Part shown: one piece after another, positions 36,001 to 39,000 of the stretch | How the letters are laid out: every line of letters starts with the position of its first letter | Position numbering within the stretch: the stretch's first letter is position 1 | Program-made: the position numbers | NCBI RefSeq assembly: GCF_001677475.2 | Contig: NZ_CP015229.1 | Reading direction: 5' to 3' (one strand) | Length of the DNA stretch: 64,000 bases | From: Escherichia coli | GTDB lineage: Bacteria; Pseudomonadota; Gammaproteobacteria; Enterobacterales; Enterobacteriaceae

Positions 36001-39000
36001 ATGCTTTTAAATGGAAGTTCGCAACATGAGTGGTGGTGTCGAATGCTTCAGTGATCTGGTTGCTCGGGTTATTCACTTCGACCAGATTCAGTGCGCCAGT
36101 ATTATTTACATGGTGCAGAGCGATATCGACATTACCAGCTGGATCCTGAACTGAGCCATCATTACTCAAAGTACCCTGGTTAGAGTTATGGTACATAGAA
36201 CTGAAACTCATGACTGCGTTTTGAGCCGTTGCATTACCTGTCGCACAATCAACTTTAATATTAATATCTTCCGGGAATCCACCTGCAGCAGTTTTGCTCA
36301 TTGCCGGGACATCAGCAATTTGTGCAGTCTGTAGCATAACCGTAACGTCTTTACCGCCACCATTTATTGTCGTTACACAAGTACCAGCGGTAACAAAACC
36401 ACCGATATTCAACTGCCCACCGTCAACACCAGCCATTACTGAAACGGCTGAAAGGGAAGATGCTGCTAATACGATGGCAAGTAGCTTTTTGTTCATTAAA
36501 ATTCTCCATAAAAAAAGAGAGACGAATCAATAACAAATATTAATTTATTGTTATTCTACGTCTTCCAAAAACGCGGCAGAGACTAGCAATATAAGGATGA
36601 AAATAAAAATTGATGGTGTGAATGATTTGGGGTGATTTATTGATTTACCTTCCCTTGCATTCATCATTTGAATAGCTATTTATTTTAGAGCAAGCGGTTA
36701 GGTGAGTATAAGAGTGTTTATAAGGGTGGTTTGATTTGTAACTCATTGATTTTTTTAATTTTATTATTTTTCTTGTGATTGATTGTAGTGTGTCATTTTT
36801 ATTATATATATATTTTAGTGTGTCATTTTGTATGCATTAGTTTTTCTGTATTTACATATTAGATTATCTTAATATAAAGTTTAATATTATTAATATATAC
36901 GTTAATTTTCATGTGTTTTTTTTGCCCATTTGTGCCTTTCTTGGGGGAATCTCACTTTTTTTTGATCTTAATTATCTAAAAGAAGAAAGGAATTTTAACC
37001 ATAAAGATTATGACTGGCATATCAGAGGCAAGAACCAGATTACTGATGCGTATTTCACTACGCATACTAGCTTGAATAATTAGAAAGGGGAGGGTGATTA
37101 CCAGCGTGGTAAGGGACAAGAAGCATTGCTCGTTAATAAACTTTGCAATGTCTCTCCATCAGGGAAAATTAATTCCGGCGCAATCTCAAACAGCGGCCAC
37201 AGCATAAATCCACGATTTTTCATATCGTAGTGCGGAACGGTCAGGCGCTCGGTGTTAATCACCTGATTGCCAAACAACATAATGTCTAAATCGAGCGTGC
37301 GCGGCCCCCAGCGTTCGGCTTTACGGACGCGACCTTGCTGCAATTCAATACGCTGTGTGTGATTGAGTAACTCTTCGGGCGCGAGTGCGGTTTCCAGCGC
37401 CACGGCGGCGTTGAGGTAATCAGGTTGATCCTGCGGCCCCAGCGGTGGAGTGCGGTAAAACGAAGAAACGGCAAGAATGCAGCTTTCAGGGATATCACCG
37501 ATTGCTTTCACGGCAGCATTGACCTGCTCCAGTGGAGAGGCCAGATTGCTGCCTATGGCAATATACGCCACTGTCATGCGGTGCCCTCACGACGCGGCGC
37601 GCGTTTGCGTGGGCGACGAGTACGACGACGCGTTGACGGTTCCTCGTCCAGTTCGTTAAGCATCCCTTTTTGATCTGGTGGCGCGGAAACCTGGAACTCC
37701 CCCCACCATTTCACCAGACGCTGCAGTTCAGCGTTACGTTCAACTTCAGCTCGCAAGGCCAACAGGTCATAAGCCGCACGGAACTTAGGATGCTCCAGCA
37801 GTTTCCATGCGCGTTTACCCTGACGTCGGGACATACGCAACTGCAACTGCCAGATATCGCGGGTTAACGTCGTCAGACGTTTCGGGATTGCCAGTGAACG
37901 GCAGGCTTCGTCCAGCACGTCGTTCATCGCCAGCGCGAAAGCGTCGTGATAGGTCAGGCCACTCTCCTGAGCGATCTTCTGTGCCGTCTCCAGCAGCGGA
38001 TACCAGAACATGGCGGCAAACAAGAACGCCGGGTTCACACGCATATCGTTATGGATACGCGTGTCGGTATTCTTCAGTACCTGCTCAATAATGCGCTCCA
38101 TCGGACTGTCGCCATTTTCCGTGAAGTAACGGGTAATGGTCGGGAACAGCGGCTGGAACAGATGATATTCACACAGCAGTTTATAGGTTTCGTAACCGTA
38201 TCCCGCTTGTAGCAGTTTAAGAGACTCTTCAAACAGGCGTGCCGGAGGAATATCGTTCAATAAGGTAGCGAGGCGGGGGATCGGTTCTGCGGTTTCTGGG
38301 CTGATGCGCATCCCCAGTTTTGCAGCAAAACGTACCGCGCGCAGCATCCGTACCGGATCTTCACGGTAGCGCGTTTCCGGATTACCAATCAGACGGATAA
38401 CGCCGTCTTTCAGATCCTTCATGCCGCCAACGTAATCGCGAACGGTAAAATCCGCGACGCTGTAATACAGGCTGTTGATAGTGAAATCGCGGCGCTGGGC
38501 GTCTTCTTCGATGGAACCGAAAATGTTGTCGCGTAGCAACATGCCGTTTTGCCCGCGTTGGGAGGTTGTGCGGTCGCTGACGTTACCTTCGTGGTGTCCA
38601 CGGAAGGTTGCGACTTCGATAATCTCCGGGCCAAACATCACATGAGCAAGACGGAAACGGCGACCCACCAGGCGGCAGTTACGGAATAGTTTACGCACCT
38701 GCTCAGGCGTAGCGTTGGTGGTCACGTCAAAATCTTTCGGCTTTTTGCCAAGTAACAGGTCGCGCACGCCGCCGCCAACCAGCCAGGCTTCGTATCCCGC
38801 TTTATTGAGCCTGTACATTACCTTCAGGGCATTTTCACTGATATCTTTGCGGGAGATAGCATGTTGCTCACGCGGGATCACCGTCACCTGGGGACGGGCG
38901 GCAGCCTGTTCAGCCTCGCTTTCCTCGCGGCTTAGCACCTTGCGGCAAAAATTAGCGACTCGGGTAAAAATAGTACACCTCGGTAGTGTCAAACATCATT

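What the first reader, a model, noticed from the sequence alone, without database searches (positions are those of the whole stretch)
36497..37097. 600-bp AT-rich silent-looking control region upstream of the yad chaperone-usher operon
There is no ORF of 60 aa or more across 600 bp, with extreme AT richness, poly-T/A tracts, (TA)n runs and a direct repeat TAGTGTGTCATTTT (about 36786 and 36816). This composition is typical of H-NS-bound, cryptic fimbrial promoters; the yad operon is known to be poorly expressed under laboratory conditions. The region could also hide a small regulatory RNA or phase-variation element.
Basis: partly seen in the sequence, partly recalled or inferred. Interest (0 to 1): 0.4.

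Follow-up and report, generated by a model that had tools for sequence, protein, structure and literature searches.

The report
AT-rich silenced-type fimbrial promoter region, imported
This 601-bp gene-free, very AT-rich stretch is the control region in front of a Yad-type fimbrial operon, of the kind bacteria keep switched off with the H-NS protein; it is ordinary in kind, but it matches no E. coli version and arrived in a ~12-kb block from another Escherichia species.

Summary
Window 36497-37097 is a 601-bp spacer with no ORF of 60 aa or more. It is the most AT-rich stretch of the 64-kb window (GC 0.285; core 0.18). It carries A/T tracts, a (TA)n run and a direct repeat that is rarer than chance (about 1% of simulations).

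It lies between folK and the first gene of a seven-gene Yad/Sta-type chaperone-usher operon, all on the minus strand. It therefore has to end the pcnB-folK transcript and hold the fimbrial promoter. It has the window's highest density of sigma-70-like sites (explained by composition), a predicted curved segment and a strong C>G transcript skew. These match the K-12 yadN/folK "promoter island", which is H-NS-bound and silenced. H-NS silencing here is inferred, not shown.

Two corrections:
- This is not E. coli's yad region. It aligns to none of 5,426 E. coli genomes, and the usher is only 60% identical to K-12 HtrE.
- It sits inside a ~12-kb block (about 28-40.5 kb) that is 98-99.9% identical to a non-coli Escherichia lineage, within an otherwise E. 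coli-like genome.

I found no support for a small RNA, an invertible switch or a Pap-type Dam switch. Short tracts do vary in length among strains.

The parts
36497..37097 (-). 601-bp non-coding control region between folK (upstream) and the fimbrial major-subunit gene (downstream), both on the minus strand
   Evidence: no ORF of 60 aa or more; GC 0.285; lowest-GC stretch of the window
36741..36915 (.). AT-richest core (GC 0.177), dense in overlapping sigma-70-like hexamer pairs on both strands
   Evidence: 28 PWM sites in the region against a window mean of 3.9 (sd 3.7) per 600 bp; composition alone predicts 24.5 (sd 5.9)
36881..37010 (.). Predicted intrinsically curved segment with T-tracts (T4, T8, T8, T4)
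   Evidence: wedge-model end-to-end/contour ratio 0.833 against mean 0.965 (sd 0.023) over 30-44 kb, the most curved 120 bp of that 14 kb; model parameters were recalled from memory
37042..37071 (-). Hairpin (ATGCGTA-GTGAAA-TACGCAT core) 27 nt after the folK stop, with no U-tract; not a canonical intrinsic terminator
   Evidence: present in the centroid fold; one search found no terminator-like site in the spacer
36660..36800 (-). Strongly C-rich, G-poor stretch of the minus-strand transcript; candidate Rho-utilisation zone for ending the pcnB-folK transcript
   Evidence: strongest strand skew in the window (0.53); C:G of 17:3 and 20:5 in 78-nt windows; function is inferred
36782..36799 (.). 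Direct repeat, ATG-proximal copy (ATTGTAGTGTGTCATTTT)
   Evidence: an edge base is substituted in the sister lineage
36812..36829 (.). Direct repeat, distal copy (ATTTTAGTGTGTCATTTT), 30 bp from the other copy
36803..36813 (.). (TA)n run between the two repeat copies; gains two units in one strain, moving the repeat spacing from 30 to 34 bp
   Evidence: L019
36750..36756 (.). T7/A7 tract that varies from 6 to 8 among strains
36916..36923 (.). T8 tract, 7 or 8 among strains
36956..36963 (.). T8 tract, 7 or 8 among strains; overlaps the only GATC of the region (36964-36967)
36739..36751 (-). Exact match to the IHF consensus WATCAANNNNTTR (AATCAATGAGTTA), flanked by the A7 tract
   Evidence: 1 of only 3 matches in the 64 kb; chance P about 0.135 at this composition; suggestive only
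36725..36744 (.). Substitution hotspot among strains
   Evidence: pi 0.026 in this quarter against 0.002-0.005 in the other quarters
36529..36555 (-). Perfect 8-bp palindrome AATAACAA-N11-TTGTTATT just upstream of the ribosome-binding site; candidate operator or 5' UTR hairpin
   Evidence: (only robust element of the centroid fold)
36504..36507 (-). Shine-Dalgarno GGAG, 7 nt before the ATG; the only upstream element shared with the nearest other allele
29265..36496 (-). Seven-gene Yad/Sta-type chaperone-usher operon: major subunit 192 aa, chaperone 252 aa, usher 863 aa, three minor subunits, adhesin 405 aa
   Evidence: usher and chaperone pass the NCBIfam equivalog cut-offs; 60/60/40/52% aa identity to K-12 HtrE/YadV/YadN/YadC
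37098..37577 (-). folK; its last ~18 codons (about 37098-37155) already belong to the allele-specific variable block
28000..40500 (.). ~12-kb block of non-coli Escherichia origin inside an E. coli-like background; breakpoints about 27.4-28.6 kb and 40.2-40.8 kb

Best explanation
The region is the cis-regulatory spacer of a Yad/Sta-type chaperone-usher fimbrial operon. pcnB-folK and the fimbrial genes run in the same direction, so the spacer has two jobs.

First, it ends the housekeeping transcript. There is no canonical intrinsic terminator, so this is probably Rho-dependent, acting on a C-rich, G-poor transcript.

Second, it holds the fimbrial promoter(s) and their regulatory sites.

Its extreme AT content, its many A/T tracts and TpA steps, a curved distal segment and a very high density of promoter-like hexamers make it a 'promoter island'-type H-NS nucleation and spreading platform. 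The operon would be kept silent by H-NS filaments until counter-silencers or host and environmental cues relieve repression, as shown for the E. coli yad locus.

The sequence is not homologous to E. coli's yadN upstream region. It entered an E. coli-like genome together with its operon and flanking genes, as a ~12-kb homologous-recombination import from a non-coli Escherichia lineage.

Shown: anatomy, composition, promoter-like density, repeat significance, lack of homology, the mosaic origin, and the absence of RNA, inversion or Dam-switch signatures. Inferred: H-NS binding and silencing, Rho-dependent termination, the position of the real promoter, and any role for the direct repeat, the IHF-like site and the palindrome.
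For: Position and strand.

Composition: the region is the lowest-GC segment of the 64 kb. It has the highest density of sigma-70-like sites in the window, 28 against 3.9 +/- 3.7 per 600 bp, equal on both strands. A/T tracts and TpA steps are 2-3-fold enriched, and the most curved 120 bp of a 14-kb neighbourhood lies inside it.

Conservation pattern: all spacers at this position (K-12, two other E. coli alleles, two Pseudocitrobacter) are AT-rich (GC 0.27-0.32) but mutually unalignable. Composition is conserved, not sequence.

Literature on the positional counterpart:
- K-12 yadN/folK is a catalogued promoter island, H-NS-bound in all studies (PMC3661553, Table 1).
- hns deletion raises yad promoter activity more than 100-fold in CFT073, and ChIP-seq shows H-NS binding at yad (PMC13245861).
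- SlyA overproduction raises yadN (PMC5797941).

Foreign origin fits H-NS targeting. Window 28-40 kb is 98-99.9% identical to the E69 lineage but 64-95% identical or unalignable to E. coli. The flanks show the reverse pattern.

Termination: no intrinsic terminator was found, and the minus-strand transcript has the strongest C>G skew in the window.

Evolution is near-neutral: pi is 0.0092 against 0.005-0.009 at third codon positions of the flanking genes. That fits a composition-driven element rather than a precisely folded RNA or a coding sequence.
Against: No experimental data exist for this allele, so H-NS occupancy and silencing are by analogy only.

The H-NS high-affinity 10-mer (TCGATAAATT) is not notably enriched: 2 hits at two mismatches or fewer.

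The promoter-like density is fully explained by composition, both in my simulations and in the tool's shuffles (4 found, 4.0 expected). It therefore does not locate a real promoter.

The curvature and PWM parameters were recalled from memory.

Rho dependence rests on base skew alone.

The significant direct repeat has no assigned function.
Confidence: 0.72

Rival explanations
1. The region is a phase-variable switch. Slipped-strand changes in the (TA)n run or the poly-A/T tracts, or inversion between short inverted repeats, would turn the fimbrial promoter on and off.
For: Tract lengths do differ among 17 copies: (TA) gains two units in one strain, the T7 tract runs 6-8, and both T8 tracts run 7-8. 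A 13-nt inverted repeat with one mismatch flanks 427 bp, a geometry like fimS.
Against: - The tracts are short (8 nt or less; about 5.5 TA units).
- The inverted repeat consists of A/T runs and is at chance level (P about 0.32).
- No inverted orientation was seen in 17 copies.
- No recombinase gene is adjacent.
- A single GATC excludes a Pap-like switch.
- E. coli Yad is reported as not phase-variable (PMC13245861).
Confidence: 0.08
2. The region encodes a small RNA or a small protein, for example the 38-aa hydrophobic ORF at 36551-36667 on the minus strand.
For: Several 33-56-aa ORFs exist. The 38-aa ORF has a hydrophobic stretch. An AU hairpin sits next to the ribosome-binding site.
Against: - No Rfam match even at E up to 10.
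- Folding is no better than shuffles on either strand.
- The small ORFs have no Pfam hit, and by inspection the 38-aa ORF lacks a Shine-Dalgarno sequence.
- Nothing but the SD/start context is conserved with the nearest allele.
- Diversity equals synonymous-like diversity.
Confidence: 0.05
3. The spacer is mostly functionless filler carried along with the recombination import. The operon would be expressed, if at all, by read-through from pcnB-folK or from a short promoter next to the ATG, with AT-richness simply reflecting mutational bias in unconstrained DNA.
For: Overall diversity is near-neutral, with a substitution hotspot. Length varies from 348 to 601 bp among alleles, with no shared sequence. 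No intrinsic terminator follows folK.
Against: AT-richness of 0.27-0.32 GC is maintained in every allele class and in another genus, despite complete sequence turnover. That argues for selection on composition. In E. coli the equivalent spacer alone drives H-NS-dependent reporter activity (PMC13245861). The ATG-proximal and folK-proximal quarters are less diverse than the centre.
Confidence: 0.12

Closest known systems
E. coli K-12 yadN/folK intergenic 'promoter island' (156927, 379 bp; PMC3661553, Table 1), the H-NS-repressed yad promoter region (PMC13245861)
   Same: Same chromosomal position and gene order (pcnB-folK, then spacer, then the major subunit of a Yad-type operon, all on one strand). 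Same composition (GC 0.27 against 0.285). Same excess of promoter-like sites. Both are associated with DNA flagged as horizontally acquired.
   Different: No alignable sequence in common. The window's spacer is 601 bp against 369 bp. The downstream proteins are only 40-60% identical. H-NS binding was measured for K-12 and CFT073 but not for this allele.
Salmonella sta fimbrial locus, the Yad equivalent at the same locus (PMC3559732)
   Same: The major subunit's best curated-family hit is StaA. It belongs to the same ancient positional fimbrial type.
   Different: The StaA score (119 bits) is well below the equivalog cut-off (230). No Salmonella sequence was compared here.
fimS invertible promoter of type 1 fimbriae, and the pap Dam/Lrp switch
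   Same: All are AT-rich regulatory regions upstream of chaperone-usher operons that H-NS, IHF and Lrp act on. An IHF-consensus site is present here.
   Different: Here there are no significant inverted repeats, no adjacent recombinase, no inversion among 17 copies, only one GATC, and no papI/papB-like genes.

Membership tests
Promoter island / H-NS-silenced AT-rich control region | Extended (300-1000 bp) region of very high AT content | tested here: met
   GC 0.285 over 601 bp; lowest in the 64-kb window
Promoter island / H-NS-silenced AT-rich control region | Abnormally high density of overlapping promoter-like sites on both strands | tested here: met
   28 sites (14 + 14) against a window mean of 3.9 (sd 3.7), the top-ranked 600-bp window. 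I used my own PWM, not PlatProm, and the excess is compositional.
Promoter island / H-NS-silenced AT-rich control region | Association with horizontally acquired genes | tested here: met
   The region lies inside a ~12-kb block that is 98-99.9% identical to a non-coli Escherichia lineage, within an E. coli-like background
Promoter island / H-NS-silenced AT-rich control region | H-NS occupancy in vivo and de-repression in an hns mutant | not testable with these tools
   Shown only for the non-homologous E. coli counterparts (PMC3661553, PMC13245861)
Promoter island / H-NS-silenced AT-rich control region | High-affinity H-NS motif (TCGATAAATT-like) and/or intrinsic curvature | tested here: inconclusive
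   Motif: 2 hits at two mismatches or fewer, not enriched. Curvature: the most curved 120 bp of 14 kb lies at 36881-37010, using parameters recalled from memory.
E. coli yad operon control region (yadN upstream) | Located between folK and the first fimbrial gene at the panB-folK locus | tested here: met
E. coli yad operon control region (yadN upstream) | Sequence homology to the E. coli yadN upstream region | tested here: not met
   No megablast or blastn match in 5,426 E. coli genomes. No pairwise similarity to the K-12, 7/2 or L007 spacers.
E. coli yad operon control region (yadN upstream) | Downstream operon is Yad (HtrE usher, YadV chaperone) | tested here: inconclusive
   Usher (1388 bits, cut-off 830) and chaperone (360.6 bits, cut-off 285) pass the NCBIfam equivalog cut-offs. 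However, the usher is 60% identical to K-12 HtrE, below the 80% threshold that PMC13245861 uses to call a strain Yad-positive.
fimS-type invertible promoter switch | Significant inverted repeats bounding the promoter segment | tested here: not met
   The best inverted repeat is 13 nt with one mismatch; 32% of composition-matched simulations do as well
fimS-type invertible promoter switch | Adjacent site-specific recombinase gene(s) | tested here: not met
   The neighbours are folK and the fimbrial subunit gene, and no ORF of 60 aa or more lies in the spacer
fimS-type invertible promoter switch | Both orientations found among isolates | tested here: not met
   0 of 17 copies inverted. Read-level heterogeneity was not testable.
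Pap-type Dam/Lrp epigenetic switch | Two GATC sites about 100 bp apart within Lrp sites, plus papI/papB-like regulators | tested here: not met
   A single GATC at 36964; no regulator ORF
Small RNA / structured cis-regulatory RNA | Match to a known family, or folding stability and conservation above background | tested here: not met
   No Rfam match. z-scores -0.55, +0.82 and +0.32. Diversity is near-neutral.
Slipped-strand (tract-length) phase variation | Long simple-sequence tract in the promoter spacer, with length polymorphism | tested here: inconclusive
   Length polymorphism exists, but the tracts are short (8 nt or less; about 5.5 TA units) and the promoter is unmapped

The most novel reading that the evidence does not exclude
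The fimbrial operon and its own silencing platform behave as one transferable module. Across at least five mutually unalignable allele classes at the panB-folK locus, and across a species boundary, selection would preserve only the silencing-competent composition of the spacer. In this allele, the polymorphic (TA)n run that sets the spacing of a statistically significant direct repeat (30 or 34 bp), together with the variable A-tract next to an IHF-consensus site, would act as heritable tuning knobs of de-repression.
Probability: 0.12. Interest if true: 0.5.

Novelty: new member of a known kind. Interest (0 to 1): 0.27.

Why it matters
The region itself is a textbook-type AT-rich, H-NS-style fimbrial control region, so it does not open a new question.

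Its modest value lies in two points.
- It shows that published yad regulation data cannot simply be transferred by gene name. This allele shares no upstream sequence with the studied E. coli promoters, and an 80% HtrE screen would score the strain 'Yad-negative'.
- It is a clean example of an inter-species replacement of an adhesin locus together with its silencing region and about 5 kb of flanking housekeeping genes. The variable block even reaches into the 3' end of folK.

This is useful for people studying fimbrial diversity, recombination hot spots and how imported operons stay silent.

Tried and rejected
- **Native E. coli yad sequence.** I first took the region for native E. coli yad sequence. 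Megablast and blastn against 5,426 E. coli genomes found nothing.
- **Organism.** I then concluded the window was not E. coli. That was wrong. 40-64 kb is up to 98.2% identical to E. coli, and the identity profile shows a local valley explained by an import.
- **RNA.** The Rfam scan at E up to 10 gave only noise. RNA folding of both strands was no better than shuffles.
- **Terminators and promoters.** The terminator scan found nothing in the spacer. The consensus promoter scan was not above shuffles, and my PWM scan could not single out a real promoter.
- **H-NS motif.** The 10-mer was not enriched.
- **Switches.** Invertible element: the inverted repeats are at chance level. Pap-like switch: one GATC only.
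- **Mobile or coding remnant.** No similarity to plasmids or phages. The small ORFs have no Pfam hits.
- **Phylogenetic footprinting.** Contigs of the nearest other alleles (53% and 44% major subunits) break 160-200 bp upstream and share only the SD/start context.
- **Literature.** I found no TSS mapping of yad and no description of strain E69 (CP089930.1).
- **Species of the donor lineage.** It could not be named.
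Full report
**Observation.** Window 36497-37097 is exactly the gap between two minus-strand genes. One is a 192-aa fimbrial major-subunit ORF (35918-36496). The other is folK (37098-37577). No ORF of 60 aa or more lies in the gap.

The gap is the most AT-rich stretch of the whole 64-kb window. GC is 0.285 over 601 bp, 0.185 in the lowest 200 bp and 0.177 for 36741-36915. The window mean is 0.511.

The direct repeat TAGTGTGTCATTTT sits exactly at 36786 and 36816 and extends to 18 nt with one mismatch. Composition-matched simulations reach a 14-nt exact repeat in 1.3% of cases and an 18-nt one-mismatch repeat in 0.7%. 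The motif occurs nowhere else in the window.

**Context.** Downstream on the minus strand lies a seven-gene chaperone-usher operon (29265-36496). It encodes the major subunit, a chaperone, an usher, three minor subunits and a two-domain adhesin. Usher and chaperone pass the NCBIfam equivalog cut-offs for the HtrE-type usher and the YadV-type chaperone.

The operon occupies the panB...folK position of E. coli yad. Wurpel et al. describe that locus as an ancient, positionally fixed fimbrial type equivalent to Salmonella Sta (PMC3559732).

Upstream on the same strand are pcnB and folK. The spacer therefore has to end a housekeeping transcript and start a fimbrial one.

**It is not the E. coli yad sequence.**
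- The spacer plus the major-subunit gene match none of 5,426 complete E. coli genomes by megablast or blastn.
- The usher and chaperone genes are only 60-80% identical at the nucleotide level in all 5,234 genomes that have a match.
- Protein identities to K-12 are 60% (HtrE), 60% (YadV), 40% (YadN) and 52% (YadC).
- Relatives of the major subunit are rare. One search of 5.8 billion proteins found three, and a scan of 100,044 species genomes found four loci.

**Mosaic origin.** I first read the 94% identity of folK-pcnB to E. coli as meaning a non-coli organism. That was wrong: window 40-64 kb is up to 98.2% identical to E. coli.

A 1-kb identity profile against E. coli NY1601 shows a background of 97-99% with a valley. 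Identity is 92-89% over 27-29 kb and unalignable or 64-69% over 29.4-37.1 kb. It then rises through 91.5% and 95% to 99% over 37-41 kb.

Loci from the lineage of CP089930.1 (deposited as 'E. coli E69', but standing as a separate species representative in the genome collection) give the mirror image. The window is 98-99.9% identical to them over 28-40 kb. It is only 87-92% identical outside that block. That lineage is itself 87-95% identical to E. coli throughout.

The breakpoints lie at about 27.4-28.6 kb (panC/panB) and about 40.2-40.8 kb (dksA). So the finding sits in a ~12-kb inter-species import into an E. coli-like genome.

The variable block begins inside folK. FolK residues 1-141 are nearly invariant, but the last ~18 residues are allele-specific. 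The window's tail resembles that of Pseudocitrobacter.

**Properties of the spacer.**
- A simple sigma-70 PWM gives 28 sites (14 per strand). The window mean is 3.9 +/- 3.7 per 600 bp, and this is the highest density in the window.
- Composition explains that density entirely. Simulations give 24.5 +/- 5.9, and the tool's own shuffles give 4 found against 4.0 expected.
- A/T tracts and TpA steps are 2-3-fold enriched. A wedge-model calculation, with parameters recalled from memory, puts the most curved 120 bp of a 14-kb neighbourhood at 36881-37010.
- The H-NS 10-mer motif is not enriched.
- No intrinsic terminator follows folK. There is only a U-tract-less hairpin at 37042-37071.
- The minus-strand transcript has the strongest C>G skew in the window. 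I therefore infer Rho-dependent termination.
- An exact IHF-consensus match (36739-36751) and a perfect 8-bp palindrome next to the ribosome-binding site (36529-36555) are candidate protein sites only.

**Comparison across alleles and strains.** Spacers at this position in K-12 (369 bp), two other E. coli alleles (348 and 353 bp) and two Pseudocitrobacter species (499 and 479 bp) all have GC of 0.27-0.32. They share no alignable sequence with the window, and little with each other. Against the nearest other allele, only the SD/start context is conserved.

Among 17 copies of this allele (11 haplotypes) none is inverted. The TA run, the T7 tract and both T8 tracts vary by one or two units, and there is a substitution hotspot at 36725-36744. 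Diversity (pi 0.0092) equals third-codon-position diversity in the flanking genes, which is 0.005-0.009. Composition is maintained; sequence is not.

**What is known.** The K-12 yadN/folK spacer is one of 78 catalogued 'promoter islands'. It is H-NS-bound in every ChIP-chip study and associated with foreign genes (PMC3661553, Table 1). In CFT073 the yad promoter rises more than 100-fold without H-NS, ChIP-seq shows H-NS binding at yad, and yad transcription also rises in an EC958 hns mutant. The authors state that Yad is not phase-variable (PMC13245861). SlyA overproduction raises yadN (PMC5797941).

**Rivals.**
- A small RNA or small protein is unsupported.
- A fimS-like switch fails on its inverted repeats (P about 0.32), on the lack of a recombinase neighbour, and on orientation (0 of 17 inverted).
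- A Pap-like switch fails on the GATC count.
- Tract-length tuning stays possible but weak, because the tracts are short and the promoter is unmapped.
- 'Functionless filler' is contradicted by the persistence of extreme AT content through complete sequence turnover in every allele class.

**Verdict.** This is a real but ordinary kind of feature: an AT-rich, promoter-island-like, probably H-NS-silenced control region of a Yad/Sta-type fimbrial operon. It is new only as an undescribed, non-homologous allele, and it is carried on an inter-species recombination import.

Noticed in passing
window ~28000-40500: A ~12-kb block (part of panC/panB, the whole fimbrial operon, folK, pcnB, gluQ and part of dksA) is 98-99.9% identical to a non-coli Escherichia lineage (CP089930.1 'E69' and relatives). 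The rest of the window is 96-99% E. coli-like and only 87-92% like that lineage. This is an inter-species homologous-recombination import.
   Followed up: yes
window 37098-37155 (3' end of folK): FolK residues 1-141 are nearly invariant across E. coli and Pseudocitrobacter, but the last ~18 residues differ by fimbrial allele class. The window's tail (NASCPLPRW) resembles Pseudocitrobacter vendiensis (NASCP-ALW), not E. coli (...LNKW). The hypervariable block thus starts inside an essential gene.
   Followed up: partly
window 1-1322: The stretch has no counterpart at the syntenic aroP-pdhR position of E. coli NY1601. It matches the end of a T6SS (tssD) / bacteriocin-immunity island present in about 1,058 of 5,426 E. 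coli genomes, at 98.9% to the best hits.
   Followed up: partly
window 36725-36744: A cluster of substitutions and small indels among 17 otherwise near-identical copies of the spacer (pi 0.026 in this quarter against 0.002-0.005 elsewhere). Cause unknown: a mutational hotspot or a micro-conversion patch.
   Followed up: partly
window 37001-38000 (pcnB 3' part / folK): Inside the imported block this kilobase is less similar to the E69 lineage (about 97.7-97.9%, with 8 gap columns in pcnB) than its neighbours (99% or more). This hints at a secondary recombination patch or at a donor slightly different from the sampled lineage.
   Followed up: no
L025 15293-15823 and 15860-16009; L004 11861-12010 (equivalent to window ~30490-31250): In some sister-lineage assemblies the third minor subunit is called as 176 aa instead of 192 aa. 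An extra 49-aa ORF is also called between it and the adhesin gene, so this part of the operon shows gene-model or sequence variation.
   Followed up: no
window 29761-30800 and 34981-36080: The fimbrial operon itself is markedly AT-rich (400-bp windows at GC 0.36-0.375 against a window mean of 0.51). Any H-NS coverage would probably extend beyond the spacer into the coding region.
   Followed up: no
L011 and L012 (Logan contigs of the 53% and 44% major-subunit alleles): Both metagenome-run contigs break 160-200 bp upstream of the major-subunit gene, which would fit assembly failure in an AT-rich upstream region. No comparative information could be obtained from them beyond the SD/start context.
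   Followed up: partly
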